From the IMG/VR virus record IMGVR_UViG_3300030379_000406: a stretch of DNA of 28,449 nucleotides. One strand, given 5' to 3'. The position numbers and the translations under genes were made by a program. This DNA comes from a virus. Taxonomy: Duplodnaviria; Heunggongvirae; Uroviricota; Caudoviricetes. Under the pieces are notes generated by a model. That model saw only the letters and a program-made list of their open reading frames with translations. It was not told the DNA's origin and made no database searches. Positions 1 through 14,092 of the stretch are shown in pieces. Positions within the stretch are counted from its first letter, which is position 1. Every line of letters starts with the position of its first letter.

Positions 1-19
1 CTATTTGATAAATATTAAA

Positions 20-1315
20 TTAATTTTTCATTGCTTCGTTATGGGGCATGGTTGGGGCAAACTCGCTTAACTGTGTATTTAACAAAGCTACCTGTGCATT
101 ATTGTTTTCAGACATCCATTTTCCGTATACCTGAAATACCATTTGCGCATCTGCATGGCCCATCTGGTTTGCTATAAATGCCGGGTTAGCACCAGCTGTC
201 AGCGACCAGCAGGCATAAGTATGTCTCGACTGATATGATTTTCGATGGCGGAGTCCGGCACGTTTTATCGCTGCGTCCCACATCTGCCTTATTGAGTCAA
301 CGGTAAAATGGTCACCATAATTTTTTACTCTCGCTGACACTTCAGGTTGAAAAACAAAGGTGCATTTTTGTTTTTCTGTTCTGCCATACTCTCTGAGGTG
401 AACATCAATGATATGCTCTTTGCTCAGTCTCGTTAATGTCATCTGACTCCGGAGAGCGTCGATTGCTGGCTTAATAAGATGAATGACCCGATTGGTTCCC
501 GCCTGTGTTTTTGGTACCGTGAAACGGTCTTTTGCTAAATTTCTCCTGATCATCATTGTTCCATTTTTCAGATCTATGTCCTCCCATCCAAGTGCACACA
601 GCTCACCAGGGCGAACTCCAGTATAAACAGAAACACACCATAAATTTTTTGCTTGCTGATTTCTGCACGCATCGATAAGACGGATAAATTCTTCCCGCGA
701 AAGAGGATCCGGAATGGTTCTTGATTCCTTTAATGGCGAGATCCCCTTAAACGGATTATCTGCCAGGTAACCGTTATCAACACCAAACTGGAACACGGCG
801 TTAAGATTTGTCATGTAATTATTTACAGTTACAGCCGATCTCCCTGGTTGTGTAACAATATAGTTACTTTTGGGGATCTGGTATCCAGTCAGTAACTCTT
901 TACGAACCTCCAGTAATTTTTCTTTATTAATCGATGAGGCAAGATTTTTTTCACCGATTATGCTCAGGATATTTTTGATGACGGCACGGTATGTGTTGAG
1001 TGATGTTTTGGCGACTTCAGTTTCTTTCAGTGCCAGAAATTTTTCAGCCAGTTCTTTTATGGTTAAATCTTGTCGGGCCTCACCAAATTTTTCCAGATTG
1101 CGTGAGGAGGGAAACTGTTTTGCATAGTCGAAAACACCAGTTTTTATTGCGTAACAAACAGAGGAGCGTAGTTCACCTGCAACGCGCCTGTTTTTTGCTG
1201 TGTCAGGAACCCCCAGATTTTCCCTGACTCTTACGTCTTTATAAACAAACCAGATACGTAATTTCCCTCCATGGTTTTCCACGCCTGTCGGATATTTCAT
1301 TTCAACTTCTCTCAT
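20..1315 (-). CDS. int: Phage tyrosine integrase (site-specific recombinase)
   Basis: 431-aa ORF; C-terminal catalytic region shows the tyrosine-recombinase pattern (SRHTYACW...GHADAQMVFQVYGKW) with conserved R/H-x-x-R/Y; sits at the prophage edge immediately downstream of an xis-like gene, as in lambda. Confidence 0.85.
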   Translation of the reverse strand: MREVEMKYPTGVENHGGKLRIWFVYKDVRVRENLGVPDTAKNRRVAGELRSSVCYAIKTGVFDYAKQFPSSRNLEKFGEARQDLTIKELAEKFLALKETEVAKTSLNTYRAVIKNILSIIGEKNLASSINKEKLLEVRKELLTGYQIPKSNYIVTQPGRSAVTVNNYMTNLNAVFQFGVDNGYLADNPFKGISPLKESRTIPDPLSREEFIRLIDACRNQQAKNLWCVSVYTGVRPGELCALGWEDIDLKNGTMMIRRNLAKDRFTVPKTQAGTNRVIHLIKPAIDALRSQMTLTRLSKEHIIDVHLREYGRTEKQKCTFVFQPEVSARVKNYGDHFTVDSIRQMWDAAIKRAGLRHRKSYQSRHTYACWSLTAGANPAFIANQMGHADAQMVFQVYGKWMSENNNAQVALLNTQLSEFAPTMPHNEAMKN

Positions 1316-1334
1316 TAGTTAGTGTGGCTTTTAG

Positions 1335-1586
1335 TCAAGTAAGATGACGTCTTGGTCTCGCTGATGCCTGGCGCTCAATCCAGCGATCAATTTCTTCCAG
1401 GTTGTAAAAGCATGGACTGTTATCCCATGGCATACCGTCATGAGCGACATGCTTATATTCCCTTCCTTCCATAAACGATTTTTCCCGGGCCTTTTTTAAC
1501 GTACCTTTTTTTATTCCTTTCAGCGCAATTAACTGCTCTTCGGATACCCATTTGCCGGGAGAGACAATCATGATTACTTCGCTCAT
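1335..1586 (-). CDS. xis: Excisionase-like small DNA-binding protein
   Basis: 83-aa basic ORF directly upstream of int on the same strand (lambda-like xis-int arrangement); start could be the internal Met (MIVSPGK...). Confidence 0.55.
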   Translation of the reverse strand: MSEVIMIVSPGKWVSEEQLIALKGIKKGTLKKAREKSFMEGREYKHVAHDGMPWDNSPCFYNLEEIDRWIERQASARPRRHLT

Positions 1587-1658
1587 CGATTTCTTTATCT
1601 CTTACATCAGACGAGCGCCGGTTGCAGAATACCAGTCACAACCGGCGACAGTTGAACA

Positions 1659-4130
1659 TTAAGAATCAGCCTGACTCGGGATCAGTTTTTGCCAGATAAC
1701 TGAAACGTATTTTGCCTGGTAACGGGCGTCATCAAGTGCATTATGGCGCTCACCTTCGAATGGAATAGCCGTTCTGGCATCGAAGTCTATGGCTTTCCCC
1801 AGCTCAACGATTGTGCGTACATCGCGATCGTTGTAGTAACGCCACGGGCAGGGGATCCCCTGCCGTTCGTATGAACGGCGCAAAATCGTGTTGTCGAAGT
1901 TGGCTCCATTTCCCCAAACCTGAACAAAAAATTCACCGGAGTTTTCGTCGATAAATTCTCGCAATTGTAACAGTGCATCATCTAACGGGATTTCATCGGT
2001 CATAATGGCAGATTGCGCTTCGCGTGATTGCTTAAGCCACCATTTAATGGTGTCCCGATCAATGACTCCGCCAGCAGTTTCCAGATCGATAGTCTTACTA
2101 AATTCCGGTCCCATATCTCCGGTTTGCGGATCGAAAAATATTGCACCTATTGAGATGATCGGGGCATCAGGATTTTTTCCCATGGTTTCAAGGTCGATCA
2201 TTAGATGGTCACACGTCCTGCTGGTGGATGTGATTTCGTGATGACCGTTCACCTTAATTGGGTGATCTGCCGTCTCGCCAGTTTCATTATCGCTATTGTG
2301 ATGCTGATTGCCGCCAGTGTTCTCCTTGTGTGGATGTTCAGCGCCTTCCATTTCCTCCGGATCATCTTCCTGAACTTCAACCTGATACTCTTCATCGAAT
2401 GTTTCTTGGTATGTTGCGTCGCCCATCACCGCGCCACAATCAGGGCAGTTGCCGCCGCCGGTCTGACCGCAGGCGGTGCAGACTTTTTCCACTTCCTGTT
2501 GCGCTACTGGTTCAGGCTGTTTCGTTTCTGGCTCGTTTTGTAACGCATTTGGACTGTTTTGTTCCGCTTTTTGGTAGTTCCGTTCCGATTCATGCTGGTT
2601 CTGGTTCACAGAATCGCGGGTCTGGAGCCCCTTAACCCATTTCGGATCATTCGGGTCACTAATCCCTTCAACAAATTCACCACGTGATGCAGCAAGCAAC
2701 TTATCGGCGTCAGGCTGGCTGATATTGGCTGCCTGCATAATTTTGTTTACTTCGTCAGCGGTAACTTTTATCGGCTCTGGTTGTTCTGAATCTTCAGCGG
2801 TATCTACATTTTGCGGTAAGCCCGTGTATGTGCCATTTTTTCGGGCAAAATATTCTTCTTTTGTGATTTCAGTGGCGCCAGCAGCCAGTGCCTTATCCAG
2901 ACCAGAGAGTTTGTTTGCGCGACCGTATTTTTCTCCGTCCTTATCTGCGAAGAGGAAATAGAACGGCCCCTCACGCTCTACAGATGGTTCAGCTTCCGGC
3001 GCGGTTTCATTTTTTGGGATATCAGATACCTCAGTTTCCACTGCATCAGTTTGTGTTTCTGATGACTGGAGAACATCAACAGTGCCCAGGTCTGTTTCTT
3101 CATTCTCAAACACGCCCTTTGTCGTCAGGTATTCGCAGATATATTTGTTCAGTGCTACGGGATCTTTGTGAATGTCGATCGGACGCTCACGGACAAGGCC
3201 AAAAATAGTTTGGCGGTCGTAGCGAAGGGCATCAGGCTGTTTGCGCATTGATGCCGAGATACGCTTCCAGTCTTCGCGGTCGTTGTCGATAACTTCTTTT
3301 TTTGCCCAGCGATGGATGCTGCCGTCAATGTTTCCGGCATCCACATCACTAGGCCAGAGAGCGTAGGCCAGTTCGTCATCCAGTGTTTTCCATGTCTGCT
3401 TGTATTCGCGATGAATGGCAGCAATGACCGGGCTGATTTTTCCTGTTGAATTTTCAGTGTACTGTTGATTGGCTCTGGCGCGGGCGAGATCAACAACAGA
3501 CGTGTATTTTCCGGTTTCCTTGCGTTCACCTTCGCGACGTTTTTTCCAGATGCGCATCTCTGCCTGAATTTCGGGCCATTTAGCACCAGGAATACATTTA
3601 TGCTTAACCCACCCAATGGCGTGCAACTTAAGCTCCGGATACATGGCGTTAACTTCTGGCATTTTCATCAACGCTTCAACGATATGTCCGTCGAATGTTG
3701 CCATGTCTTCCTGCAACAATTCCTGTGCGCTAATAACCATATCAACGGTGATGTTTTCACATGTGTCGAACTTAACCATGACAGCGTTCTGTACTTCAGG
3801 GGCCAGCTTGTCAAAAGTGACGTTCATCGGATCGGATTCAGTCTCAACCGGGACAAAAGAAGCAGACTCCTCATCCCAGCGGTTTTCCTGCATATATTCA
3901 GCATCCCATGAATCGAGGGCAGGGCGGGGTATGCCAGGTTTATCCTCGCAGACAATAAATTTATAAGCGCAGTCCTGAGCAGCCGGATAATGTTCCAGGA
4001 ATTGCCAGTGAAATTTTGCTCGAGCACGGCGTTCGTCGCCAGCTTCAATGGCTGTGGCTACAGCCACAGCGCCTTCTTCCCTTGTTGCCAGTTCGTCAGG
4101 AATAGCGGCGCAAATAAAGACTTTACTCAT
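1659..4130 (-). CDS. RecE-like (exodeoxyribonuclease VIII family-like) protein with C-terminal DEDDh 3'-5' exonuclease domain
   Basis: Long ORF (835 aa from first ATG; likely start MSKVFICAA at 4130, preceded by GAGG). C-terminal ~200 aa carry DnaQ/RNase T-type motifs: Exo I MIDLETMG, Exo II GANFDNTIL, Exo III HNALDDARYQAKY. An internal CxxC-N6-CxxC zinc-ribbon (CTACGQTGGGNCPDCG) and acidic linkers are present. The mid-region motif DKLLAASRGEFVEGISDPNDPKWVKG matches my recollection of Rac RecE (unverified). Confidence 0.75.
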   Translation of the reverse strand: MSKVFICAAIPDELATREEGAVAVATAIEAGDERRARAKFHWQFLEHYPAAQDCAYKFIVCEDKPGIPRPALDSWDAEYMQENRWDEESASFVPVETESDPMNVTFDKLAPEVQNAVMVKFDTCENITVDMVISAQELLQEDMATFDGHIVEALMKMPEVNAMYPELKLHAIGWVKHKCIPGAKWPEIQAEMRIWKKRREGERKETGKYTSVVDLARARANQQYTENSTGKISPVIAAIHREYKQTWKTLDDELAYALWPSDVDAGNIDGSIHRWAKKEVIDNDREDWKRISASMRKQPDALRYDRQTIFGLVRERPIDIHKDPVALNKYICEYLTTKGVFENEETDLGTVDVLQSSETQTDAVETEVSDIPKNETAPEAEPSVEREGPFYFLFADKDGEKYGRANKLSGLDKALAAGATEITKEEYFARKNGTYTGLPQNVDTAEDSEQPEPIKVTADEVNKIMQAANISQPDADKLLAASRGEFVEGISDPNDPKWVKGLQTRDSVNQNQHESERNYQKAEQNSPNALQNEPETKQPEPVAQQEVEKVCTACGQTGGGNCPDCGAVMGDATYQETFDEEYQVEVQEDDPEEMEGAEHPHKENTGGNQHHNSDNETGETADHPIKVNGHHEITSTSRTCDHLMIDLETMGKNPDAPIISIGAIFFDPQTGDMGPEFSKTIDLETAGGVIDRDTIKWWLKQSREAQSAIMTDEIPLDDALLQLREFIDENSGEFFVQVWGNGANFDNTILRRSYERQGIPCPWRYYNDRDVRTIVELGKAIDFDARTAIPFEGERHNALDDARYQAKYVSVIWQKLIPSQADS

Positions 4131-4222
4131 TTGTTTTAACCTCATGACAGATTTAAGGATGAACAAATCCCTGCCATTGCTGGCATATAAGAATGAAACC
4201 GGATATTTATTACGGAACTGTT

Positions 4223-4414
4223 TTAAAGACCTGCCGGGATTTCGATATTATCCTGGTGAATAACTTTATCGACCGGGTAACAGTTACCGGGAATTTTCTG
4301 TTCGGTTGCTGCAGTCATACACTCCTGCATTGTCCTGTGAACACTGACTGCAATATCAACTGGCTCTCCGGAAACAAGAAAAACTGTCAGAACAAGCACA
4401 AATGCTGAATTCAT
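4223..4414 (-). CDS. Small predicted secreted/membrane-anchored protein (hypothetical)
   Basis: 63 aa from Met at 4414 (MNSAFVLVLTVFLVSG... hydrophobic N-terminal signal-like segment); AAGGA Shine-Dalgarno upstream; start overlaps the stop of the upstream minus-strand ORF (ATGA). Confidence 0.3.
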   Translation of the reverse strand: MNSAFVLVLTVFLVSGEPVDIAVSVHRTMQECMTAATEQKIPGNCYPVDKVIHQDNIEIPAGL

Positions 4415-4599
4415 TGTGCACATCCTTTTGGCATCAGACGTAAACGAGCCAGCATTGAAACAATGCATATTTTATTTAATAGCTCCCGTTCTTGTTTTCT
4501 CTTGTTAATGGCATCTTCAGTAAATACTGGGTTACTGATAGTGACACCAATTTCAAAACAACCTTCAGACGTATTAACGTTTGGTAATAACGTTTTCAT
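4411..4599 (-). CDS. Hypothetical small protein
   Basis: 62 aa from internal Met (MKTLLPNVNTSEG...), GAGG 8 nt upstream, stop overlaps the start of the next minus-strand ORF. It competes with the plus-strand ORF 4616..4924 for the same promoter space, so both calls are uncertain. Confidence 0.3.
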   Translation of the reverse strand: MKTLLPNVNTSEGCFEIGVTISNPVFTEDAINKRKQERELLNKICIVSMLARLRLMPKGCAQ

Positions 4600-4615
4600 T
4601 ATCGCGTCCTCAACA

Positions 4616-4924
4616 ATGAATTTTGTGATGCAGTGCCTGGTGCCTCCAGGTGACGTTAACCAGTTAACAATTAACGCCGGATACGGGGTATTCCCCTCTG
4701 AACAGGCGCGTAAGGACTGGCAAAACGCCCGCAAAAAACTCTCGAGGGCAAAGGTGAAGAAACCTGCTGTGGTTGATCCGGACCTTATCTGGTCATCACC
4801 TGACGGAGAAATACGTCGCTACGACAGTCGCCTAAACATAATCTGTCGCGAGTGCCGGAAGAGCGAAGTTATGCAGCGCATACTGGCTTTCTATCAGGGT
4901 AATTTTCAGGACGTGGCGCAGTGA
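4616..4924 (+). CDS. Hypothetical protein translationally coupled to the methyltransferase remnant
   Basis: About 102 aa from ATG 4616 (N-terminal part of the 153-aa tracked ORF looks non-coding); stop overlaps the GTG start of the downstream methyltransferase ORF (GTGA). Confidence 0.35.
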   Translation: MNFVMQCLVPPGDVNQLTINAGYGVFPSEQARKDWQNARKKLSRAKVKKPAVVDPDLIWSSPDGEIRRYDSRLNIICRECRKSEVMQRILAFYQGNFQDVAQ

Positions 4925-5367
4925 GTGCACCGGCAACCATTCTTGATATGTGCTGTGGCAGCCGCATGTTCTGGTTCGATAAGTCTGACGAACGGGCGAT
5001 ATTCAGCGATATCAGAAAAGAAGGATACACATTACGCAATGGGAGACGCTTGATTATCAGCCCTGACATTATCGCAGATTTTCGTGCATTATCATTTGCA
5101 GACGCATCTTTTTCGATGGTTGTATTAGACCCTCCGCATCTTGAGAGTGTTGGTGATAACGCCTGGATGGGAAAGAAATATGGACGGCTGAATAAAGATG
5201 CCTGGCGTGATGATTCGCGACAGAGATTTAAAGAAGCCTTTCGGGTGTTGAGGCCGCACGGCGTTCTGATTTTTTAATGGAATGAAACGCAAATACCGGT
5301 AAGCCAGATTCTGGCACTGACAGACAGAAAACCTGTTATCTGTCAACGAACAGGGAAAAAACGATAA
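4921..5367 (+). pseudogene. Phage-type DNA methyltransferase, disrupted (premature TAA at 5275-5277, then frameshift)
   Basis: N-terminal SAM-binding-like motif ILDMCCGSRMF and catalytic-like motif VLDPPH followed by RVLRPHGVLIF; reading frame stays open in-frame past the TAA (WNETQIPVSQILALTDRKPVICQRTGKKR) before a second stop, and further remnant in another frame to about 5410. Confidence 0.55.
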
Positions 5368-5510
5368 AACCCACTGGATTATTTTTATGAAAGAGGCATC
5401 CAGTGAGTAGATTCGTAAGGCTACAGATACGTATATCTGAATAATTAAATTCAGTTCTGTAAATAAAATTTAATCCTTAACCGGATGGATTTCTGCACCC
5501 TCAGAACATC

Positions 5511-5542
5511 AGGAGGCCGCCCGAAAGGGCGGTAGTGAAATG
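5511..5542 (+). promoter_or_regulatory. Translation initiation region: AGGAGG Shine-Dalgarno, 16-nt GC hairpin with GAAA loop, then ATG
   Basis: AGGAGG at 5511-5516; perfect 6-bp stem CCGCCC/GGGCGG with GAAA tetraloop at 5517-5532; ATG at 5540. SD-to-ATG spacing (~23 nt) is only workable if the hairpin folds. Confidence 0.4.
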
Positions 5543-5722
5543 CGAAAGTTCAAAATTATTATTGAAACGGGAATAGCTGGTGGAGATTTTGAGGATGTAT
5601 TCGAAGTGGACGATGACGCAACACCTGAGGAAATTCATGACGGAGCATAAGAAATTTTCTTTAACTACTGCAATTACTCATACCACGAAATAAAAGACGA
5701 TGAGGAAGAACAAAGTGGCTGA
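5540..5722 (+). pseudogene. Small ORF with single in-frame TAA (36 codons + TAA + 23 codons)
   Basis: MRKFKIIIETGIAGGDFEDVFEVDDDATPEEIHDGA-stop-EIFFNYCNYSYHEIKDDEEEQSG; frame stays open across the ochre codon at 5648-5650. Confidence 0.3.
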
Positions 5723-5891
5723 TTTTTGTTCAGCTAAATATAACATCAGTTTTGAAGAGCGGGATGAACTATTAATGGACTATGGTGAGTTACGCGGTGG
5801 AAGTGCTGCTGATGTCGAATCCTAGCGTGATGACTATGAAGCGGGAAAAACTCCGGTCGAAGCATATTGTGATGAGTGGGGCGATGAATGA
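5700..5891 (+). pseudogene. Small ORF with single in-frame TAG (41 codons + TAG + 21 codons)
   Basis: MRKNKVADFCSAKYNISFEERDELLMDYGELRGGSAADVES-stop-RDDYEAGKTPVEAYCDEWGDE; amber codon at 5823-5825; terminal TGA overlaps the ATG of the next ORF (ATGA). Confidence 0.3.
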
Positions 5892-6175
5892 GCGAGATTA
5901 ATTATCAGGAAGGGCATGAAACGGCGGGGCAAGCAAAACCAGTGGCATGGCGATATCGCTACGTGAAAAAAGGCGTTACGGACTTTCAGGGGAAGTAGTG
6001 GTCTGGTGACTGGAAATATGTACCGAAAAAAGAGGATTGTAACGACAGGCCGAACTATCAAATTCAGGCCTTATTCACTGCCTCACCAGTCCCAGTTACA
6101 TCAGAAGAACTGGTTAAAGCTGTGCACTTTTATGAACAACTAAAACGCGAAAATCCACCAACATCCGGCAACTAG
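5888..6175 (+). pseudogene. Small ORF with single in-frame TAG (36 codons + TAG + 58 codons)
   Basis: MSEINYQEGHETAGQAKPVAWRYRYVKKGVTDFQGK-stop-WSGDWKYVPKKEDCNDRPNYQIQALFTASPVPVTSEELVKAVHFYEQLKRENPPTSGN; amber codon at 5996-5998. Confidence 0.3.
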
Positions 6176-6429
6176 ATTAATGGATTAACTATGTCGGTTA
6201 AACGACCAGCCAACTGAAAAAGCGGAAACCTGATTACAGGTTGCCAGATAAGGCAATGAGCTACCTGGCGCGGAACGGACTGATAAGTATGGGGAATGTT
6301 TTACGATGAACCTTTAGACTAAAGAGTTTGTAACGCTATGTAAGTGATTTTTTCTGGTTTAGATATTTATATGTCCGGCCAAATTGAGGTGTGTTTAAAT
6401 GTAATTGCACATTGATTGTAGGAGGAATA

Positions 6430-6609
6430 ATGAAAAACGCATTGCAGTTTTTGTTTGTTGCGTTCTGGTTGTTCGCATCATGTATGCCCATCATCTTCAC
6501 AGCAAGGTATATGGAAAAAGTTGATGTTTTGATATTAATATTTGGATATATAAATGCCCTTTTTTTAGGGGTGTTCATGGCGGTCATGTGCATTGAATAC
6601 TGGCGGTAA
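6430..6609 (+). CDS. Small hydrophobic (two-TM-like) membrane protein, hypothetical
   Basis: 59 aa (MKNALQFLFVAFWLFASCMPIIF...); strong SD GGAGGA 5 nt upstream of ATG 6430. Confidence 0.45.
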   Translation: MKNALQFLFVAFWLFASCMPIIFTARYMEKVDVLILIFGYINALFLGVFMAVMCIEYWR

Positions 6610-6879
6610 ATACAGCGAACTCCATTGGTTTAGTTGGATATTTACTGTGCTGGACAAAAACGGTTTGCGGGGAAATCTTAGTTAAGTAGAATGACTGCGG
6701 GTGCTTGAGGCTATCTGCCTCGGGCATGGACACCAACGGCAGATAGAGAAAAGCCCCAGTTAACATTACGCGTCCTGCAAGACGCTTAACATTAATCTGA
6801 GGCCAATTTCATGCTAGACACATGTAGGTTAGCCTCTTACGTGCCGAAAGGCACGGAGAAGCAGGCTATTGTTAACACC

Positions 6880-8490
6880 AAGCTGTAATGTCCCCTTTGA
6901 ACCATTCTAAAATGTCCCCAGACAATTCTCTGGGGGATTTTTCATGATCAAAGAGACTGTTACGATGAGTCATAAGGAACTCCACCGACTTCAGATTATT
7001 CAGGAACAAGCTGCGGCACGCATTGGCATTTCTATTCGGCAGGTTAAACGTCTGGTGCAACGGTATAGAAATGAAGGGCCTTCTGGTCTGGTTTCCCACC
7101 GACGTGGAAAGCGTCCTAATAATTCCTTTTCTACTGAATTCAGAGCAACAGTAATTTCACTCCTCAAAGGCCGTTACGCTGATTTTGGACCTACGTTTGC
7201 GTGCGAAAAATTGCGCGAGATACACGGTTTATCTTTATCCGTTGAAACTCTCAGAAAGTGGATGATAGAAGAGGGGTTATGGCGTGAACGCCGTCGTAAA
7301 ATTGCCCGTATATATCAACGCCGCATGCGACGACCATCTTACGGTGAACTGATCCAGATTGATGGCTCACCTCATGACTGGTTTGAAAATCGAGGCCCCA
7401 GATGTACACTGATCGTTTTCATTGATGATGCCACCAGTGCGTTGATGGCGTTGCGTTTTGTGCCTGCTGAAACAACCCGGGCTTACATGGAAACCCTCCG
7501 GGGTTACCTTAATGATCATGGCGTACCGCTCGCTCTCTACTCTGATAGACACAGTATATTCAGGGTAAATAACCCAGAGCGGGAAGGTGAGCTGACCCAG
7601 TTCACTCGTGCGATAAAGACACTGGGCATCGAGCCAATCCATGCCAACAGCCCGCAGGCAAAAGGGCGGGTAGAGCGCGCCAATCAGACACTACAGGACA
7701 GGCTGGTCAAAGAAATGCGGCTTCAGAATATCAGTGATATTGAAACAGCAAATGCATGGTTGCCGACCTTTATTGAAGCCTATAACAACCGGTTCGCTAC
7801 GTCGCCTCGTACTACTGATAATGCTCATCTTGATGTGCACCATTCTGAAGAGGAACTGGGTTATATCTTCAGCCTACAGGCGAAGCGCGTTCTGTCTAAA
7901 AATCTCACTTTCCAGTACAAAAGCAGTGCGTTTCAGGTACGCAGTGAGGGCCGGGGATATCGACTTAGGCATTCGGTTGTTACTGTATGCGAGAACTTTG
8001 ACGGTGAAATTAACGTTCTGTATGACGGGAAAGCGCTGGGCTGGGAAAAGTATGTTGATGGCCCGGAGCCTATACCACTGGATGATGAAAAGAGTGTCCA
8101 TGAACGAGTGGATAATGCCCGTATTGATTTACGCTCAAAATACTATGTTAAACCTAAAGCTGACCATCCCTGGCTTACGCGCCGAACGCAAAGTCATCAG
8201 CAAGTTAAGCCCCCGAAGTTACCTAAAAAGAAGCCTGATCCCGATAAAAAAGATTGAAACCAAGATCGATTCGGTTGAGTGCATATCCATTCATAGGGTA
8301 GATTCTTAAGTCGCGTTTCTGGTGTTCATTTTCGGGTGGTTTGTTACTTGTTTTACCGGGGATATGCCAGAAACGCGCTGAGTCAGTCTGGGCGGTGCGC
8401 GTAATGAGGCGTTATGGTAAATAGCCTATGCTAATGTCCGCTAAGAGCAAGAAGCGGAAGTTGGCAGTTTTGTGGACTGTCCCCACAAAA
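6880..8490 (+). mobile_element. Putative insertion-sequence-like element around the rve transposase (boundaries approximate, terminal inverted repeats not identified)
   Basis: Single transposase ORF; short direct repeats TAATGTCC and TGTCCCCA occur on both flanks (6885-6920 and 8433-8486), but I could not define clean terminal inverted repeats. Confidence 0.3.
6944..8257 (+). CDS. DDE-type transposase/integrase with N-terminal HTH and rve (retroviral-integrase-like) catalytic core; IS481/ISNCY-like
   Basis: 437 aa; HTH-like N-terminus (IGISIRQVKRLVQRY); catalytic-core signatures IDGSPHDW, IFIDDATSA, YSDRHSIF, ANSPQAKGRVERANQTLQDRL (D-D-E with the G-x-x-E-R motif); basic Lys/Pro-rich C-terminal tail. 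Confidence 0.7.
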   Translation: MIKETVTMSHKELHRLQIIQEQAAARIGISIRQVKRLVQRYRNEGPSGLVSHRRGKRPNNSFSTEFRATVISLLKGRYADFGPTFACEKLREIHGLSLSVETLRKWMIEEGLWRERRRKIARIYQRRMRRPSYGELIQIDGSPHDWFENRGPRCTLIVFIDDATSALMALRFVPAETTRAYMETLRGYLNDHGVPLALYSDRHSIFRVNNPEREGELTQFTRAIKTLGIEPIHANSPQAKGRVERANQTLQDRLVKEMRLQNISDIETANAWLPTFIEAYNNRFATSPRTTDNAHLDVHHSEEELGYIFSLQAKRVLSKNLTFQYKSSAFQVRSEGRGYRLRHSVVTVCENFDGEINVLYDGKALGWEKYVDGPEPIPLDDEKSVHERVDNARIDLRSKYYVKPKADHPWLTRRTQSHQQVKPPKLPKKKPDPDKKD

Positions 8491-8693
8491 GTGACTACAG
8501 AAATAGTTGCAATTCATAATTGATCATGGGTTGTCAGTTAAACTCGTGGCGATTTAAATAGACTAATTGGGAGTGCGTCCATTACTTATATCTTGTAATG
8601 TTAACTATCAGAAATGATACAAAGATAATATGTCTTTAAAGAAAAGGCTGATGGCGAAAAGTGGCCCGATGAGGGCCACAATACGGCTGTCAC

Positions 8694-9026
8694 TTAGACG
8701 TAAATATCAATGGTGCCAGCGGTATTTGTATCGTCTTTTTTCTCTTCTTTTTTATCAGGCTGAACTGTCGCGTCTTCATTCTTTTTCTCTGCCTGCTGCC
8801 TTAACAACTGCTCCAGTTGAGCCCAGAGGCTTTCAATTTGCTTCTGTACCAATGCAGCCATTTCTTTTTTCTGCTGTGTCGTCATCCCCTCTTCCGATGA
8901 GATTTTCCCAAGCTTTTCAGTCAGCACCTGAATTTGTCTTGTGATTTTGGCTATTTCTGATGTTCCTTCCGGGGCGGAGTTGTTTGAAATAACGGTTGAG
9001 GTATTTCCCTGAATTGTGACAGACAT
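8694..9026 (-). CDS. flxA: FlxA (FliA-regulated protein of Qin prophage)
   Basis: 110-aa ORF (MSVTIQGNTSTVISNNSAPEG...KKDDTNTAGTIDIYV) recognised from memory as E. coli FlxA; consensus sigma-28 promoter immediately upstream. Confidence 0.85.
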   Translation of the reverse strand: MSVTIQGNTSTVISNNSAPEGTSEIAKITRQIQVLTEKLGKISSEEGMTTQQKKEMAALVQKQIESLWAQLEQLLRQQAEKKNEDATVQPDKKEEKKDDTNTAGTIDIYV

Positions 9027-9049
9027 AGATTTCTCCTTTTAAAAAAGCA

Positions 9050-9076
9050 CTATCGGCATGCACAAAAAAATCTTTA
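9050..9076 (-). promoter_or_regulatory. Sigma-28 (FliA) promoter for flxA
   Basis: On the minus strand: TAAAGATT - 11 nt - GCCGATAG (consensus TAAAGTTT-N11-GCCGATAA), about 25 nt upstream of the flxA ATG. Confidence 0.7.
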
Positions 9077-9228
9077 ATCGTATTTCTTGTGTCATTAATT
9101 GTTTGATGTTCAGATTGTTTTCCTCGCGGGCTGGCGCGCCTCAGAAAGTAAAGCTTGTTGACAGGGGTAAACGTTCGGCAATAATTTTCTGCCGCATGCG
9201 GGTGTTGCATAAAACGTGTTACGTTCCT

Positions 9229-9534
9229 TTATCGACAGGTCAGGTCACCGCTCACCCGCCGACGAGAAAGCAATACTGACATGCTAAAGCAAAAAATAGA
9301 TGAATAAGTTGAGTTGTGCATATGTAGCCTGACCGTCACAAAGTATATGGTGTCTGTACCAGTAAGATGATGGCCGGACTCTTTAAAAACGAGCTGACCT
9401 GCACAATACAGGATGGACTTAGCAATGGCTGCTCCTGGCACAAAGCGGACAGTGATCACCGTTCTTACGACTACTTTCTGACTTCCTTCGTGACTTGCCC
9501 TAAGCATGTTGTAGTGCGATACTTGTAATGACAT
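9229..9534 (-). CDS. ydfV: Hypothetical protein at the ydfV position
   Basis: 101-aa ORF between flxA and relB, divergent from relB; symbol assigned by length and synteny with K-12 Qin, not by sequence recall; coding status uncertain. Confidence 0.35.
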   Translation of the reverse strand: MSLQVSHYNMLRASHEGSQKVVVRTVITVRFVPGAAIAKSILYCAGQLVFKESGHHLTGTDTIYFVTVRLHMHNSTYSSIFCFSMSVLLSRRRVSGDLTCR

Positions 9535-9547
9535 TTGTAATTACAAG
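9495..9547 (+). promoter_or_regulatory. relBE promoter/operator (palindromic RelB-binding repeats)
   Basis: TTGCCC - 17 nt - GATACT followed by the palindrome CTTGTAATGACATTTGTAATTACAAG (9522-9547) just upstream of the relB SD. Confidence 0.65.
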
Positions 9548-9558
9548 AGGTGTAAGAC

Positions 9559-9798
9559 ATGGGTAGCATTAACCTGCGTATTGACGATGAACTTAAAGCG
9601 CGTTCTTACGCCGCGCTTGAAAAAATGGGTGTAACTCCTTCTGAAGCGCTTCGTCTCATGCTCGAGTATATCGCTGACAATGAACGCTTGCCGTTCAAAC
9701 AGACACTCCTGAGTGATGAAGATGCTGAACTTGTGGAGATAGTGAAAGAACGGCTTCGTAATCCTAAGCCAGTACGTGTGACGCTGGATGAACTCTGA
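9559..9798 (+). CDS. relB: RelB antitoxin
   Basis: 79 aa (MGSINLRIDDELKARSYAALEKMGVTPSEALRLMLEYIADNERLPF...), recognised as E. coli RelB; stop overlaps the relE start. Confidence 0.95.
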   Translation: MGSINLRIDDELKARSYAALEKMGVTPSEALRLMLEYIADNERLPFKQTLLSDEDAELVEIVKERLRNPKPVRVTLDEL

Positions 9799-10085
9799 TG
9801 GCGTATTTTCTGGATTTTGACGAGCGGGCACTAAAGGAATGGCGAAAGCTGGGCTCGACGGTACGTGAACAGTTGAAAAAGAAGCTGGTTGAAGTACTTG
9901 AGTCACCCCGGATTGAAGCAAACAAGCTCCGTGGTATGCCTGATTGTTACAAGATTAAGCTCCGGTCTTCAGGCTATCGCCTTGTATACCAGGTTATAGA
10001 CGAGAAAGTTGTCGTTTTCGTGATTTCTGTTGGGAAAAGAGAACGCTCGGAAGTATATAGCGAGGCGGTCAAACGCATTCTCTGA
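9798..10085 (+). CDS. relE: RelE mRNA interferase toxin
   Basis: 95 aa (MAYFLDFDERALKEWRKLGSTVREQLKKKLVEVLESPRIEANKLRGMPDCYKIKLRSSGYRLVYQV...), recognised as E. coli RelE. Confidence 0.95.
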   Translation: MAYFLDFDERALKEWRKLGSTVREQLKKKLVEVLESPRIEANKLRGMPDCYKIKLRSSGYRLVYQVIDEKVVVFVISVGKRERSEVYSEAVKRIL

Positions 10086-10156
10086 ACCAAAGCATGACAT
10101 CTCTGTTTCGCACCGAAGGTGACACTTCTGCTTTGCGTTGACAGGAGAAGCAGGCT

Positions 10157-10312
10157 ATGAAGCAGCAAAAGGCGATGTTAATCGCCCTGATCGTCATCTG
10201 TTTAACCGTCATAGTGACGGCACTGGTAACGAGGAAAGACCTCTGCGAGGTACGAATCCGAACCGGCCAGACGGAGGTCGCTGTCTTCACAGCTTACGAA
10301 CCTGAGGAGTAA
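10157..10312 (+). CDS. hokD: HokD/RelF Hok-family membrane toxin
   Basis: 51-aa ORF (MKQQKAMLIALIVICLTVIVTALVTRKDLCEVRIRTGQTEVAVFTAYEPEE), below the ORF-track length cutoff; found by manual translation. Confidence 0.9.
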   Translation: MKQQKAMLIALIVICLTVIVTALVTRKDLCEVRIRTGQTEVAVFTAYEPEE

Positions 10313-10380
10313 GAGACCCGGCGGGGGAGAAATCCCTCGCCACCTCTGATGTGGCAGGCATCCTCAACGCACCCGCACTT

Positions 10381-10407
10381 AACCCGCTTCGGCGGGTTTT
10401 TGTTTTT
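10381..10407 (+). terminator. Rho-independent terminator after hokD
   Basis: Hairpin ACCCGC-TTCG-GCGGGT followed by TTTTTGTTTTT. Confidence 0.7.
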
Positions 10408-10528
10408 ATTTTCAACGCGTTTGAAGTTCTGGACGGTGCCGGAATAGAATCAAAAATACTTAAGTAGCGCGCAGGGATAAGAGGGATGGTCCCTTAAAGG
10501 GGAGAGCTAATTATCCGGAAGGATTCTG

Positions 10529-10780
10529 ATGATGAACATCGAAGAACTGCGTAAAATTTTTTGTGAAGATGGCCTCTATGCGGTGTGCGTTGAAAATGGA
10601 AATCTTGTTAGTCATTACCGCATTATGTGTTTGCGAAAGAATGGGGCTGCGTTAATTAATTTTGTGGATGCTCGGGTCACGGACGGATTTATCTTGCGCG
10701 AAGGTGAGTTTGTCACTTCATTACAGGCATTGAAAGAGATCGGAATAAAAGCTGGCTTTTCTGCTTTTTCAGGAGAATAA
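10529..10780 (+). CDS. Hypothetical protein (83 aa)
   Basis: Clean ORF with GGAAGGA SD upstream of ATG; no recognisable motif. Confidence 0.45.
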   Translation: MMNIEELRKIFCEDGLYAVCVENGNLVSHYRIMCLRKNGAALINFVDARVTDGFILREGEFVTSLQALKEIGIKAGFSAFSGE

Positions 10781-10846
10781 ACTCATCTACAATCTTGCGC
10801 GGGGCTGAACTCCCGCTGAGTAACACCGTGCCACCGGAGAAAACCG

Positions 10847-11125
10847 ATGGCACGCAACGCAAAATATTACAATTCTGATAATTCGCCCGTTCTTGCCTGC
10901 ACGCACGGGCGGTATTCTCACGCATTCAAGTCTGAATGGTTCCAGCACCCTCCATGCACTGCAGAACAGGCCGAATGGCTGATTCATTCTTACCGCAGGC
11001 GCGGGTTCGAGGTTAAGAAAGCTCTCAGTCTCGACTATCGGCACTGGATAATCTCTGTCAGGCTGCCTTATTCCGAACGCCCACCACGTGCGTCCCGCAC
11101 TTTCCAGCAACGGATCTGGAGGTAA
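10847..11125 (+). CDS. rem: Rem-like prophage protein
   Basis: 92-aa ORF between hokD and the DUF968 gene, matching the rem position in Qin; symbol by synteny and partial recall. Confidence 0.5.
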   Translation: MARNAKYYNSDNSPVLACTHGRYSHAFKSEWFQHPPCTAEQAEWLIHSYRRRGFEVKKALSLDYRHWIISVRLPYSERPPRASRTFQQRIWR

Positions 11126-11126
11126 C

Positions 11127-12176
11127 GTGCGGGTATTACTTAGACCTGTTCTGGTGCCTGAGCTTGGGCTGGTGGTCCTTAAGCCGGGCCGTGAATCCAT
11201 ACAGATATTTCATAATCCTCGAGTGCTGGTGGAACCGGAACCAAAAAGCATGCGTAATCTGCCATCCGGAGTCGTTCCTGCCGTTCGCCAGCCGCTGGCG
11301 GAAGACAAAACATTGCTGCCGTTTTTTAGTAACGAACGGGTGATTCGTGCTGCTGGCGGCGTTGGCGCATTGTCCGACTGGCTATTACGTCATGTTACAT
11401 CCTGCCAGTGGCCTAATGGCGATTACCATCACACTGAAACAGTCATTCACCGTTATGGTACCGGCGCAATGGTGTTGTGCTGGCACTGCGACAACCAACT
11501 GCGTGACCAGACATCGGAATCACTGGAGCTGCTTGCTCAACAAAATCTGACAGCATGGGTGATTGACGTCATCCGTCACGCAATAAGCGGTACGCAGGAG
11601 CGGGAATTATCTTTGGCTGAATTATCCTGGTGGGCGGTCTGCAATCAGGTGGTGGATGCACTACCTGAGGCTGTATCGCGTCGTTCGCTGGGATTACCAG
11701 CGGAAAAAATCTGCTCGGTGTACCGCGAAAGCGACATCGTACCGGGAGAGCAGACCGCCACCAGCATATTGAAACAACGCACAAAAAATCTTGCACCGTT
11801 GCCTTACGCCCACCAGCAACAAAAATCACCACAGGAAAAGACGGTGGTAAGCATCACCGTTGATCCAGAGTCTCCGGAATCTTTCATGAAGCTGCCTAAA
11901 CGTCGCCGCTGGGTTAAGGAGAAATACACACGTTGGGTTAAGACACAGCCGTGTGCTTGCTGCGGTATGCCAGCCGACGATCCGCATCATCTGATTGGTC
12001 ACGGGCAGGGCGGAATGGGAACAAAAGCACATGATCTCTTTGTGTTGCCTTTGTGCAGAAAGCATCACAACGAGCTGCATACGGATACAGTGGCATTTGA
12101 AGATAAGTATGGCTCCCAACTGGAGCTGATATTTCGTTTTATCGATCGCGCGCTGGCAATTGGCGTACTGGCGTAA
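11127..12176 (+). CDS. ydfU: YdfU-like DUF968 protein with C-terminal Cys/His (HNH-like) cluster
   Basis: 349 aa from GTG 11127 (GGAGG 7 nt upstream); C-terminus QPCACCGMPADDPHHLIGHG...LPLCRKHHNELH resembles an HNH/zinc-finger nuclease motif; nin-region position upstream of Q. Confidence 0.7.
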   Translation: MRVLLRPVLVPELGLVVLKPGRESIQIFHNPRVLVEPEPKSMRNLPSGVVPAVRQPLAEDKTLLPFFSNERVIRAAGGVGALSDWLLRHVTSCQWPNGDYHHTETVIHRYGTGAMVLCWHCDNQLRDQTSESLELLAQQNLTAWVIDVIRHAISGTQERELSLAELSWWAVCNQVVDALPEAVSRRSLGLPAEKICSVYRESDIVPGEQTATSILKQRTKNLAPLPYAHQQQKSPQEKTVVSITVDPESPESFMKLPKRRRWVKEKYTRWVKTQPCACCGMPADDPHHLIGHGQGGMGTKAHDLFVLPLCRKHHNELHTDTVAFEDKYGSQLELIFRFIDRALAIGVLA

Positions 12177-12189
12177 GTGGAGAACGAGC

Positions 12190-12942
12190 ATGAACCTTGA
12201 AGCCTTACCAAAATATTACTCCCCAAAATCTCCAAAATTGAGCGATGACGCTCCAGCGACAGGCACCGGTTGTTTAACAATTACGGATGTAATGGCAGCG
12301 CAGGGGATGGTGCAGTCGAAAGCACCACTTGGGTTGGCCTTATTTCTGGCAAAAGTTGGTGTTCAGGACCCTCAGTTTGCGATTGAAGGCCTGCTAAATT
12401 ACGCGATGGCACTGGATAACCCGACATTGAACAAATTGAGTGAAGAAATCCGGTTACAGATTATTCCTTACCTCGTGAGTTTTGCCTTTGCTGATTACTC
12501 CAGGTCTGCGGCAAGTAAGGCTCGCTGTGAGCATTGTTCAGGTACGGGATTTTATAATGTATTGCGCGAAGTGGTGAAACACTACAGACGCGGGGAATCT
12601 GTAATCAAGGAAGAATGGGTGAAGGAACTATGTCAGCATTGCCATGGTAAGGGCGAAGCCAGCACAGCGTGCAGAGGGTGTAAGGGTAAAGGGATTGTTC
12701 TGGATGAAAAAAGAACCCGGTTTCATGGCGTACCGGTATATAAGATTTGTGGGCGTTGTAATGGAAACCGGTTTAGTCGTTTACCGACCACGCTGGCACG
12801 ACGTCATGTCCAGAAGCTGGTACCAGACCTGACCGATTATCAGTGGTATAAGGGGTATGCGGACGTCATTGGTAAACTGGTAACAAAGTGCTGGCAGGAA
12901 GAAGCATACGCGGAAGCGCAATTGAGGAAGGTGACGAGATAA
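12190..12942 (+). CDS. quuQ: Late-gene antiterminator Q
   Basis: 250 aa from MNLEALPKYY; four CxxC pairs (CEHCSGTG, CQHCHGKG, CRGCKGKG, CGRCNG); immediately followed by a promoter and short-transcript terminator, as in lambdoid Q-pR'-tR' units. Confidence 0.8.
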   Translation: MNLEALPKYYSPKSPKLSDDAPATGTGCLTITDVMAAQGMVQSKAPLGLALFLAKVGVQDPQFAIEGLLNYAMALDNPTLNKLSEEIRLQIIPYLVSFAFADYSRSAASKARCEHCSGTGFYNVLREVVKHYRRGESVIKEEWVKELCQHCHGKGEASTACRGCKGKGIVLDEKRTRFHGVPVYKICGRCNGNRFSRLPTTLARRHVQKLVPDLTDYQWYKGYADVIGKLVTKCWQEEAYAEAQLRKVTR

Positions 12943-12973
12943 ATGATTTTTGCTGAAGATGGCGACATGATGT

Positions 12974-13002
12974 TTGCATTTTTCAAAAAATATGGATAAA
13001 AT
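12974..13002 (+). promoter_or_regulatory. Candidate late promoter pR'
   Basis: TTGCAT - 17 nt - TAAAAT just downstream of Q. Confidence 0.5.
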
Positions 13003-13047
13003 TTTTTCAACGATGGGCTTTGTATACCCGACGTTAAGAAAAAGTAG

Positions 13048-13079
13048 AAAACCCGCTGATGAGCGGGTTTTGTGCTTTA
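13048..13079 (+). terminator. tR'-like rho-independent terminator
   Basis: AAACCCGC-TGATGA-GCGGGTTT followed by a T-rich run, about 45 nt downstream of the candidate pR' -10. Confidence 0.7.
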
Positions 13080-13363
13080 AATGGGGCAATGGTAATGTTG
13101 AATCTCATCCCGGGACTCATGTCTGTTAACTTATTATTTAGCTGGTGACTTGGTTATTTGCCTGATGTTTAAAATGTTTTCTTCCAGTACAATGTCCCTA
13201 AACACAATGAGTCTGCTTATTATATTATTAGCAGAGCTATTACGGCCAAAGTACAGCATAAGCTTTTAAAGCCAATCAACCAGTCATCAAGACAGACGGG
13301 GTTATTCATAAAAACTCTCCATGTGTGATCCGATGGGGCCTGAAATTAAAGCTTTAATATAGC

Positions 13364-13576
13364 TCATGAAAGGTAAACATTGGCAGCTGAAGGGCCACGC
13401 AGACCATTTATCCGGCAAAATTCCACGCGTAATCCGGTGGTAATTTCTTCTGCATCGCGGAGATTGAGCGCTGAAACATGAAGCTGGACATCGATACGAC
13501 CATCGGATGGGGTGATAAGACCCTTGCCGCTTTTGCCGTCAAAGGTTTTGACAATTCCTGTCATTTTACGGGACAA
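13364..13576 (-). CDS. cspF: Cold-shock protein family member (CspF/CspH subfamily)
   Basis: 70 aa ([27 protein letters not shown]...[16 protein letters not shown]); symbol by synteny (adjacent to cspB); I cannot distinguish CspF from CspH by recall. Confidence 0.8.
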
Positions 13577-13876
13577 AAAAATTCCTTAATACTGATAACT
13601 TGGCGCACTATACACACGTTCCTGAAGAAAGCTATAGTTTTTTGATGGGGTTGAAGATGGCTGGATGTCTAAAATAAACATTGCTTCATATGTTCAACTA
13701 TGCGTTAATGATTGCGTCGGTTTGAAGAACAGACGATATACGAAGTAGTTTACTAAAGCAGTTCTCATTTCAGGTGTTATTCACTTATTCCTTCTTTGAG
13801 TCTCTCCAATTAAGTACGAAGTCGTTTCTGTTATGCAAACCATTTATGCCGAAAGGCTCAAGTTAAGGAATGTAGA

Positions 13877-14092
13877 ATGTCAAATAAAATGACTGGTTTA
13901 GTAAAATGGTTTAACGCTGATAAAGGTTTCGGCTTTATTTCTCCTGTTGATGGTAGTAAAGATGTGTTTGTGCATTTTTCTGCGATTCAGAATGATAATT
14001 ATCGAACCTTATTTGAAGGTCAAAAGGTTACCTTCTCTATAGAGAGTGGTGCTAAAGGTCCTGCAGCAGCAAATGTCATCATTACTGATTAA
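13877..14092 (+). CDS. cspB: Cold-shock protein CspB
   Basis: 71 aa ([71 protein letters not shown]); long 5' UTR typical of csp genes. Confidence 0.95.

What the first reader, a model, noticed from the sequence alone, without database searches (positions are those of the whole stretch)
5540..6175. Three tandem small ORFs, each interrupted by exactly one in-frame nonsense codon and no frameshift
ORF1 (5540-5722) has an internal TAA at 5648, ORF2 (5700-5891) an internal TAG at 5823, ORF3 (5888-6175) an internal TAG at 5996. In each case the frame stays open on both sides, and ORF2/ORF3 are coupled by an ATGA overlap. Random decay would be expected to leave frameshifts as well. This is either recent pseudogenisation, selection in a suppressor background, or regulated read-through.
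Basis: seen in the sequence. Interest (0 to 1): 0.55.

Follow-up and report, generated by a model that had tools for sequence, protein, structure and literature searches.

The report
Decayed small genes in Qin prophage

Summary
Aligned with intact homologues from other E. coli prophages and phages, each is a single-base change of a sense codon: AAA>TAA, TGG>TAG, CAG>TAG. The window is a Qin-type cryptic lambdoid prophage. RefSeq already marks ORF1 (DUF7167) and ORF3 as pseudogenes in identical copies.

The "no frameshift" argument fails once the true gene limits are used:
- ORF3 originally ran to 6309. It also has a 90-nt deletion, a second CAG>TAG (the supposed natural stop at 6173) and a 4-nt frameshift deletion.
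- ORF2 really starts at 5715, where ATG has become GTG.
- The methyltransferase gene just upstream has its own AAA>TAA plus a +1 frameshift.

Changes specific to this allele in ORF1 and ORF2 fit neutral evolution (13 non-synonymous, 2 nonsense, 6 synonymous), whereas intact alleles show pN/pS of 0.12. About 500 of 5,426 complete E. coli genomes carry this allele, and none has any of the stops reverted. Sub-lineages add further frameshifts and an IS66 insertion. The window has no tRNA gene.

Verdict: ordinary, already annotated prophage gene decay. Interest is low.

The parts
4921..5395 (+). Class I SAM-dependent methyltransferase pseudogene, the neighbour upstream. AAA>TAA nonsense at 5275-5277; +1 G in the run 5353-5355 (frameshift); ancestral stop codon position 5393-5395 now reads GAG.
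   Evidence: Alignment with the intact 157-aa genes of strains GB089 and RM8352. PGAP calls it 'frameshifted; internal stop' in H15, 400660, KMi029 and CFSAN064036.
5516..5533 (+). GC-rich 7-bp hairpin with a GAAA loop, just upstream of the ORF1 start codon. It lies within a stretch that is invariant in all aligned homologues. Role unknown.
   Evidence: Fold -16.9 kcal/mol, z = -2.8; invariant columns in alignments A1/A2 and the 11-sequence alignment.
5540..5722 (+). ORF1: DUF7167-family pseudogene (60 codons). Nonsense TAA at 5648-5650, derived from AAA (Lys37).
   Evidence: Pfam PF23768, 50 bits against a cut-off of 24.4, and phrog_1997 E = 2e-28. PGAP 'DUF7167 family protein; internal stop' in identical copies. 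AAA in all 8 sequences outside the Qin allele.
5715..5891 (+). ORF2: pseudogene of a 58-aa phage protein of unknown function. Start codon ATG>GTG at 5715-5717. Nonsense TAG at 5823-5825, derived from TGG (Trp37). Nine lineage-specific non-synonymous changes (the ATG>GTG start included), one of them the loss of conserved Trp16.
   Evidence: Intact 58-aa CDS annotated at the same place in MLI023K2, R8, DG351-2, 43905, EC20-72C-1 and phages 640R1 and 689R5. phrog_519 E = 2e-11. Substitution list.
5888..6309 (+). ORF3: pseudogene of a 171-aa phage protein of unknown function. TAG 5996-5998 (from CAG); 90-nt deletion at 6160/6161 next to AATCCAC repeats; TAG 6173-6175 (from CAG); 4-nt deletion after 6206 (frameshift); ancestral stop TGA at 6307-6309.
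   Evidence: Pairwise alignment with DG351-2; multiple alignments; PGAP 'frameshifted; internal stop' over exactly 5888-6309; phrog_660 E = 9e-29.

Best explanation
The region is a run of four adjacent dead genes in the early (replication-to-antiterminator, 'nin-like') region of a Qin-type cryptic lambdoid prophage of E. coli. The genes are a methyltransferase, a DUF7167 gene, a 58-aa gene and a 171-aa gene. They are small accessory genes, kept under purifying selection in other prophages and phages. In the resident, defective Qin lineage they are no longer needed and have decayed by ordinary spontaneous mutation.

The lesions are five nonsense substitutions (three of them G:C>A:T transitions), one weakened start codon, two frameshift indels and one 90-nt deletion.

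The reading frames look open on both sides of each stop only because the decay is shallow and the sequence is still 88-93% identical to working alleles. No read-through or suppression is involved. The products, if any, are truncated peptides.

Shown: the ancestry of each stop, the extra lesions, the neutral-like substitution pattern, and fixation across genomes. Inferred: that loss was neutral rather than selected, and that the truncated peptides do nothing.
For: 1. Context. The block and its surroundings are identical or nearly identical to Qin regions annotated with exonuclease, ydfD, dicB, relBE, hokD, flxA, ydfU and the Q antiterminator.

2. Ancestry of the stops. Each stop aligns to a sense codon in intact homologues: AAA, TGG and CAG/ATG.

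3. The intact alleles are real genes. Pooled pN/pS is 0.12 (ORF1), 0.12 (ORF2) and 0.27 (ORF3). PGAP annotates them, and Pfam and PHROG profiles match them.

4. Relaxed selection. Changes specific to the Qin allele in ORF1+ORF2 are 6 synonymous, 13 non-synonymous and 2 nonsense. That fits neutrality (P = 0.20). It is very unlikely under the purifying regime of the intact alleles (P = 2e-4).

5. Further lesions. ORF3 has a 90-nt deletion, a second TAG and a 4-nt frameshift. The methyltransferase has a TAA plus a +1 frameshift. The ORF2 start is ATG>GTG.

6. Continued decay inside the stop-bearing clade. Two shared 1-nt deletions occur in ORF3 of CFSAN064036 and 400660. An IS66 element sits inside ORF2 in strain 6409. 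SNP density in the 'coding' parts equals that of the spacer.

7. Decay elsewhere in the prophage. An ISNCY element lies just downstream, and the window has lost 3.6 kb of the immunity and replication region, including the early promoter region.

8. Independent knock-outs of the same genes in other prophages: EC20-72C-1 (ORF1 Tyr46>TAA and ORF3 AAA>TAA), phage 606R7 (ORF2 TGG>TAG), and A-run frameshifts in R8, 640R1 and EC20-72C-1.

9. Nonsense count and lack of indels in ORF1/2 are within chance.
Against: - Nonsense lesions outnumber frameshifts 5 to 2 in the four-gene block, which is somewhat nonsense-rich. The numbers are small and no formal test is significant.
- The same Trp codon of ORF2 became TAG independently in phage 606R7. 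That could hint at selection for that truncation.
- The allele is almost invariant (mostly 100% identical) in about 500 genomes from many hosts. Selection after the stops arose therefore cannot be measured directly.
- No expression data were available.
Confidence: 0.9

Rival explanations
1. Adaptive inactivation (domestication). The intact early genes are harmful to the host when the prophage is derepressed, so loss-of-function alleles, here nonsense mutations, were favoured and swept. The genes are dead either way, but by selection rather than drift.
For: - The same genes are knocked out repeatedly and independently in other prophages, including the identical TGG>TAG in ORF2 of phage 606R7.
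- The stop-bearing allele is found, nearly invariant, in about 9% of complete E. coli genomes.
- Four adjacent genes are all hit.
Against: - Intact alleles sit in roughly 1,450 other E. coli genomes with no sign of harm.
- The number of stops is what neutral substitution predicts.
- A TGG codon has only two nonsense paths, both of the commonest mutation type, so recurrence at one codon is not very improbable.
- The frequency of the allele is explained by Qin itself being widespread.
- No toxicity data exist.
Confidence: 0.07
2. Regulated or leaky stop-codon read-through. The stops lower but do not abolish synthesis of full-length proteins that are still under selection, as proposed for many bacterial in-frame stops by Belinky et al. 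2021 (PMC7918605).
For: - In-frame stops that persist in bacterial genes, with an excess in phage and transposon genes, are reported in PMC7918605.
- ORF1 and ORF2 have no indel, and the stops are fixed in about 500 genomes.
Against: - The substitution pattern on the stop-bearing lineage is neutral-like, not purifying.
- Conserved Trp16 of ORF2 is lost and its start codon weakened.
- ORF3 cannot give a full-length product even with read-through, because of the second TAG, the 4-nt frameshift and the 90-nt deletion.
- One stop is TAA, which from general knowledge is the least leaky stop in E. coli.
- Sub-lineages tolerate further frameshifts and an IS insertion.
- No Rfam element overlaps the block.
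Confidence: 0.02
3. Suppressor background. The element was propagated in a host carrying nonsense-suppressor tRNAs, so amber and ochre alleles were phenotypically silent, as with laboratory phage amber mutants.
For: Two of the three stops are amber. TAG 5996 and TAG 6173 derive from CAG, so a glutamine-inserting amber suppressor would restore the wild-type residue.
Against: - The window contains no tRNA gene.
- The identical allele occurs in about 500 genomes of natural isolates from humans, pigs, cattle, poultry, dogs, water and food.
- One stop is ochre, which amber suppressors do not read.
- Frameshifts in ORF3 and the methyltransferase cannot be suppressed this way.
- The rest of the host genome could not be examined.
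Confidence: 0.01
4. Sequencing or assembly artefact.
For: None specific.
Against: The same bases are found in hundreds of independent complete assemblies and in a phage record, at 100% identity.
Confidence: 0

Closest known systems
Pseudogenes of the Qin cryptic prophage as annotated by NCBI PGAP in RefSeq E. coli genomes (e.g. ECOLC_RS26670 and ECOLC_RS26235 in ATCC 8739)
   Same: Identical sequence. ORF1 is annotated 'DUF7167 family protein; internal stop' and 5888-6309 'hypothetical protein; frameshifted; internal stop'.
   Different: - PGAP does not annotate the ORF2 pseudogene.
- In many genomes PGAP accepts the truncated 118-aa methyltransferase as a valid CDS.
- This window's copy additionally lacks 3.6 kb of the dicF-dicA-dicC-replication region.
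Intact DUF7167 / 58-aa / 119-171-aa gene trio of lambdoid prophages and phages (e.g. E. coli DG351-2, strain 43905, phage vB_EcoS-689R5)
   Same: Same order, same overlapping start/stop junctions, and 88-93% nucleotide identity.
   Different: Those copies have sense codons at all positions that are stops here and show purifying selection (pN/pS 0.12-0.27). Their function is unknown.
Persistent in-frame stop codons with proposed read-through in bacterial genes (Belinky et al. 2021, PMC7918605)
   Same: In-frame TAA/TAG in otherwise open frames, shared by many genomes, in the phage/mobilome class that the paper finds over-represented.
   Different: The paper's criterion of continued purifying selection is not met here. 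The lineage-specific changes are neutral-like and further disabling lesions are present.
Amber/ochre conditional-lethal mutants of laboratory phages
   Same: Point nonsense mutations in phage genes.
   Different: These occur in natural isolates, in non-essential accessory genes of a defective prophage, together with frameshifts, and with no suppressor tRNA in the element.

Membership tests
Nonsense-disrupted pseudogene of a protein-coding gene | Significant homology to a family of intact protein-coding genes across the stop | tested here: met
   ORF1: Pfam DUF7167, 50 bits (cut-off 24.4), match spans residues 2-53 across the stop. ORF1/2/3: PHROG 1997, 519 and 660, E = 2e-28, 2e-11 and 9e-29. 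Intact CDSs annotated in relatives.
Nonsense-disrupted pseudogene of a protein-coding gene | The stop aligns to a sense codon in intact homologues and differs from it by a single base | tested here: met
   AAA>TAA, TGG>TAG, CAG>TAG (twice).
Nonsense-disrupted pseudogene of a protein-coding gene | Relaxed selection and/or further disabling lesions on the stop-bearing lineage | tested here: met
   - 13 non-synonymous + 2 nonsense against 6 synonymous changes.
- ATG>GTG start.
- 90-nt and 4-nt deletions in ORF3.
- Extra frameshifts and an IS66 insertion in sub-lineages.
Programmed stop-codon read-through / recoding | The stop codon is conserved among homologues while the downstream frame stays under purifying selection | tested here: not met
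   The stops are confined to one allele, and homologues carry sense codons. The lineage-specific pattern is neutral-like.
Programmed stop-codon read-through / recoding | A recoding signal (SECIS with TGA, a stimulatory structure, or a leaky context) | tested here: inconclusive
   None of the stops is TGA, so selenocysteine is excluded. No Rfam family matches the block at gathering score. No dedicated search for a stimulatory structure downstream of each stop was made.
Suppressor-dependent nonsense alleles | A suppressor tRNA is present in the element or host | tested here: inconclusive
   The window has no tRNA gene. The host chromosome outside the window could not be examined.
Qin-type cryptic lambdoid prophage of E. 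coli | Characteristic gene content and near-identity to annotated Qin regions | tested here: met
   The 901-nt block is 100% identical, and the flanking region collinear, with records annotated exonuclease, ydfD, dicB, relB/relE, hokD, flxA, ydfV, ydfW, rem, ydfU and ydfT. Apart from one 3,578-bp deletion, single mismatches and one 1-nt indel, window 1-18319 maps on phage record PhiR42_1.
Qin-type cryptic lambdoid prophage of E. coli | Defectiveness (inability to form phage) | not testable with these tools
   Inferred from the IS insertion, the pseudogenes and the loss of the immunity/replication region in this copy. No induction data.

The most novel reading that the evidence does not exclude
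The nonsense alleles are not neutral debris but were selected. The intact DUF7167 / 58-aa / 171-aa early genes would then be harmful to the host, or the 36-residue N-terminal peptides would keep a useful activity. That would explain why the same genes, and in ORF2 the very same Trp codon, are knocked out independently in several prophage lineages, and why the triple-stop allele sits nearly unchanged in about 9% of E. coli genomes.
Probability: 0.08. Interest if true: 0.3.

Novelty: already known. Interest (0 to 1): 0.08.

Why it matters
It matters little beyond annotation. The case shows that a 'clean' set of in-frame stops without frameshifts can result from judging genes by their present open frames rather than their ancestral limits. 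It adds three small corrections to RefSeq-style annotation of Qin:
- ORF2 is an unannotated pseudogene.
- The apparent end of ORF3 is itself a nonsense mutation.
- The 118-aa methyltransferase CDS is a truncation.

The intact gene trio is widespread in lambdoid phages, is under purifying selection and has no known function. That is a more interesting target than the dead copies.

Tried and rejected
- Suppressor tRNA in the element: none found.
- Known RNA elements over the block: none. The only Rfam hits are sok (6699-6870), two cspA leaders and IS009, all elsewhere.
- Function of the intact proteins: Pfam gives only DUF7167 for ORF1. There are no Pfam or NCBIfam hits for ORF2 and ORF3, and no meaningful PDB sequence hit. 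PHROG families are all 'unknown function'.
- Search for an evolutionary intermediate, meaning the Qin-background allele with one or more stops reverted: the best match in 5,426 genomes is the window allele itself at 99.3% (3 mismatches), so none exists in that collection.
- Measuring selection after the stops arose: not feasible, because the stop-bearing clade is almost invariant.
- Pooled window-versus-intact pN/pS (0.17-0.23): uninformative, because it is dominated by old allelic differences. The polarised lineage-specific counts were used instead.
- A -1 slippery-site reading of the A-run at 5965-5970 was considered. It was rejected because the zero frame is GTG AAA AAA GGC, not X XXY YYZ, and relatives with A7 or A8 simply have broken frames.
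- A literature check for the E. coli indel:substitution ratio did not return the primary paper. The value of about 1:10 is from memory of Lee et al. 2012 PNAS, and a range of 0.05-0.2 was used.
- The origin of phage record PhiR42_1 (induced virion or predicted prophage) could not be established from the paper library.

Full report
**Observation**

Direct reading confirms the three in-frame stops: TAA at 5648-5650, TAG at 5823-5825 and TAG at 5996-5998. It also confirms the open frames on either side and the ATGA overlap at 5888-5891. Two details are wrong.

- ORF2 does not start at the ATG at 5700. In every intact homologue the gene starts at the position of window 5715, eight bases before the end of ORF1. 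The codon there is ATG in the relatives and GTG in the window. The ATG at 5700 exists only because of an A>T change at 5701 that is private to this allele.
- ORF3 does not end naturally at 6175 (see 'The frameshifts are there' below).

**Context**

The 901 bases around the finding are 100% identical to a chromosomal region in hundreds of E. coli genomes. In ATCC 8739 and other strains that region is flanked by exonuclease, ydfD, dicB, dicA, dicC, a ydaT-like gene, an O-like gene and DUF977. After the block come an ISNCY transposase fragment, ydfW, flxA, ydfV, relB/relE, hokD, rem, ydfU and the Q antiterminator. This is the Qin cryptic lambdoid prophage.

NCBI's pipeline already marks 5540-5722 as 'DUF7167 family protein; internal stop' in those records. 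It marks 5888-6309 as 'hypothetical protein; frameshifted; internal stop'. ORF2 is left unannotated. A GenBank phage record from ECOR13 (PhiR42_1) carries the same sequence.

Window 1-18319 maps on that record apart from single mismatches and a 1-nt indel, with one large exception. It lacks 3,578 bp that hold dicF, ydfABC, dicA, dicC, the ydaT-like and O-like genes and the 5' half of DUF977. The junction is at 4685-4688. This copy has therefore also lost the early promoter and immunity region that would normally drive the block.

**What the three ORFs are**

The conceptual read-through products match phage protein families across the stop.

| ORF | Match |
|---|---|
| ORF1 | Pfam DUF7167, 50 bits against a cut-off of 24.4; phrog_1997, E = 2e-28 |
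| ORF2 | phrog_519, E = 2e-11 |
| ORF3 | phrog_660, E = 9e-29 |

Intact, annotated versions of all three, in the same order and with the same overlapping junctions, occur in other E. coli prophages. Examples are MLI023K2, R8, DG351-2 and 43905, and the phage records vB_EcoS-640R1 and -689R5. Identity is 88-93%. Among intact copies pooled pN/pS is 0.12, 0.12 and 0.27, so these are real genes under purifying selection. Their function is unknown: no further Pfam, NCBIfam or PDB sequence match was found.

**Ancestry of the stops**

In the alignments each stop corresponds to a sense codon one base away.

| Window stop | Ancestral codon | Where the stop is found |
|---|---|---|
| TAA 5648 | AAA (Lys37) | Qin allele only (window, H15, 400660) |
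| TAG 5823 | TGG (Trp37) | Qin allele; also arose independently in phage 606R7 |
| TAG 5996 | CAG (43905, 689R5) or ATG (DG351-2) | Also in MLI023K2, R8, EC20-72C-1 and phage 640R1, so it is older |

**The frameshifts are there**

Against the intact 171-aa gene of DG351-2, the ORF3 pseudogene runs from 5888 to the shared TGA at 6307-6309. Besides TAG 5996 it carries three more lesions:

- a 90-nt deletion at 6160/6161, next to short AATCCAC repeats;
- a 4-nt deletion after 6206 that shifts the frame.

The gene immediately upstream, a class I SAM-dependent methyltransferase of 157 aa when intact, has an AAA>TAA at 5275-5277. It also has a +1 G in the run 5353-5355.

The four-gene block 4921-6309 thus holds five nonsense codons, one weakened start codon, two frameshift indels and one large deletion. 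The premise that random decay would also have left frameshifts is met.

**Is the pattern beyond chance?**

Changes were polarised against eight sequences outside the Qin allele. The window lineage has about 20 private substitutions in ORF1+ORF2: 6 synonymous, 13 non-synonymous (including ATG>GTG and the loss of conserved Trp16) and 2 nonsense (with the shared TAG added).

- A synonymous share of 6/21 fits neutrality (expected about 0.19; P = 0.20).
- It is very unlikely under the selection seen in intact alleles (P = 2e-4).
- Random single-base changes in these genes create a stop 5-6% of the time, so P(at least 2 stops in 20 changes) = 0.30.
- With an indel:substitution ratio of 0.05-0.1, P(no indel in ORF1+ORF2) is 0.37-0.14. 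The E. coli value of about 0.1 is recalled from Lee et al. 2012 and was not retrieved here.

Nothing needs a special explanation.

**Population picture**

About 505 records carry the allele at 99% identity or more, about 1,450 carry alleles at 80-95%, and only 13 lie between. A query with all three stops reverted finds nothing better than the window allele itself (99.3%, i.e. three mismatches). No intermediate or revertant exists among 5,426 complete genomes.

Inside the stop-bearing clade decay continues:

- CFSAN064036 (poultry, Denmark) and 400660 (human, Kenya) share two 1-nt deletions in ORF3.
- Strain 6409 has an IS66-family element inside ORF2.
- SNP density in the former coding parts equals that in the spacer.

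Other prophages show independent knock-outs of the same genes. EC20-72C-1 has ORF1 TAC>TAA and ORF3 AAA>TAA. R8, 640R1 and EC20-72C-1 have A7 or A8 frameshifts in the A6 run at 5965-5970. Phage 606R7 has the same TGG>TAG in ORF2 on a different sequence background.

**Rival readings**

*Read-through with retained function.* This has a basis in the literature (PMC7918605). Its own criterion, purifying selection on the stop-bearing sequences, is not met here. ORF3 could not yield a full product in any case.

*Suppressor background.* The window has no tRNA gene, and one stop is ochre. The frameshifts could not be suppressed this way. The allele also occurs in natural isolates from many hosts.

*Artefact.* Excluded by identity across independent assemblies.

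*Selected loss.* This remains open at low probability. The genes may have been lost by selection rather than drift, and the recurrence of TAG at ORF2 Trp37 is the only hint. A TGG codon has only two nonsense paths, both of the commonest mutation type, so the hint is weak.

**Verdict**

These are ordinary pseudogenes of a defective prophage, largely already flagged in RefSeq. Its first-listed interpretation is right, but the feature that made it look unusual disappears once the ancestral gene limits are used.

Noticed in passing
window 4685-4688: Compared with phage record PhiR42_1 and the ATCC 8739 Qin, this copy lacks 3,578 bp. The missing stretch holds dicF, ydfA/B/C, dicA, dicC, the ydaT-like and O-like genes and the 5' half of DUF977. 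dicB (4411-4599, minus strand) is kept but has lost its operon promoter and its repressor.
   Followed up: partly
window 4921-5395: The methyltransferase gene is a pseudogene (AAA>TAA at 5275, +1 G at 5353-5355). In many RefSeq genomes the truncated 118-aa ORF is nevertheless annotated as a normal 'class I SAM-dependent methyltransferase' CDS, WP_001310834.1.
   Followed up: yes
window 5516-5533: A stable GC-rich hairpin with a GAAA tetraloop lies 6 nt upstream of the ORF1 start codon. It is invariant in all 11 aligned homologues although the sequence further upstream is mosaic. Fold energy is -16.9 kcal/mol, z = -2.8, and no T-run follows. Role unknown.
   Followed up: partly
window 6430-6609 (+): An unannotated 59-codon ORF with a strong AGGAGG Shine-Dalgarno sequence encodes a very hydrophobic peptide (MKNALQFLFVAFWLF...). 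The surrounding stretch is about 99% conserved in MLI023K2. Phage records annotate an ORF on the opposite strand there instead. No PHROG match for either.
   Followed up: partly
window 6699-6870 and about 6868-6880: An Rfam sok antitoxin RNA match (104 bits) marks a hok/sok locus. Homology to relatives ends exactly where the hok start codon should be, and the ISNCY (IS1202/ISEsa1-like) element follows. The IS seems to have replaced the toxin gene and left the antisense RNA region. A second hokD, annotated as intact in identical Qin copies, lies after relBE.
   Followed up: partly
L010 (phage vB_EcoM-606R7) about 2804-2806; L008 (EC20-72C-1) 2602-2739: Independent nonsense mutations hit the same genes in other lineages. 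606R7 has TGG>TAG at the same ORF2 Trp37 codon on a different background. EC20-72C-1 has ORF1 TAC>TAA (Tyr46) and ORF3 AAA>TAA.
   Followed up: partly
window 5965-5970 (A6 run); L004, L012, L008: The A6 run in ORF3 is A8 in R8 and phage 640R1, and A7 in EC20-72C-1. It is a homopolymer hotspot for frameshifts. Phage 640R1's annotated 85-aa 'ORF3' is the out-of-frame product.
   Followed up: yes
L018 (strain 6409) 84-2420: An IS66-family element (ISEc22) is inserted inside the ORF2 pseudogene at about window 5747 in some Qin copies.
   Followed up: yes
window 5400-6300 across genomes: The allele is 100% identical in strains that, from memory, belong to different phylogroups (ATCC 8739 A; W B1; 042 D; IAI39 and CE10 F). 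Almost nothing lies between 99% and 93% identity. This suggests recent spread or recombination of this Qin segment rather than long vertical descent.
   Followed up: no
window 13716-14108, 16618-17002, 25344-25542: Rfam hits outside the finding: two cspA-type thermoregulator leaders (the cold-shock genes of Qin) and an IS009 RNA family match inside the tail-fibre assembly gene region.
   Followed up: no
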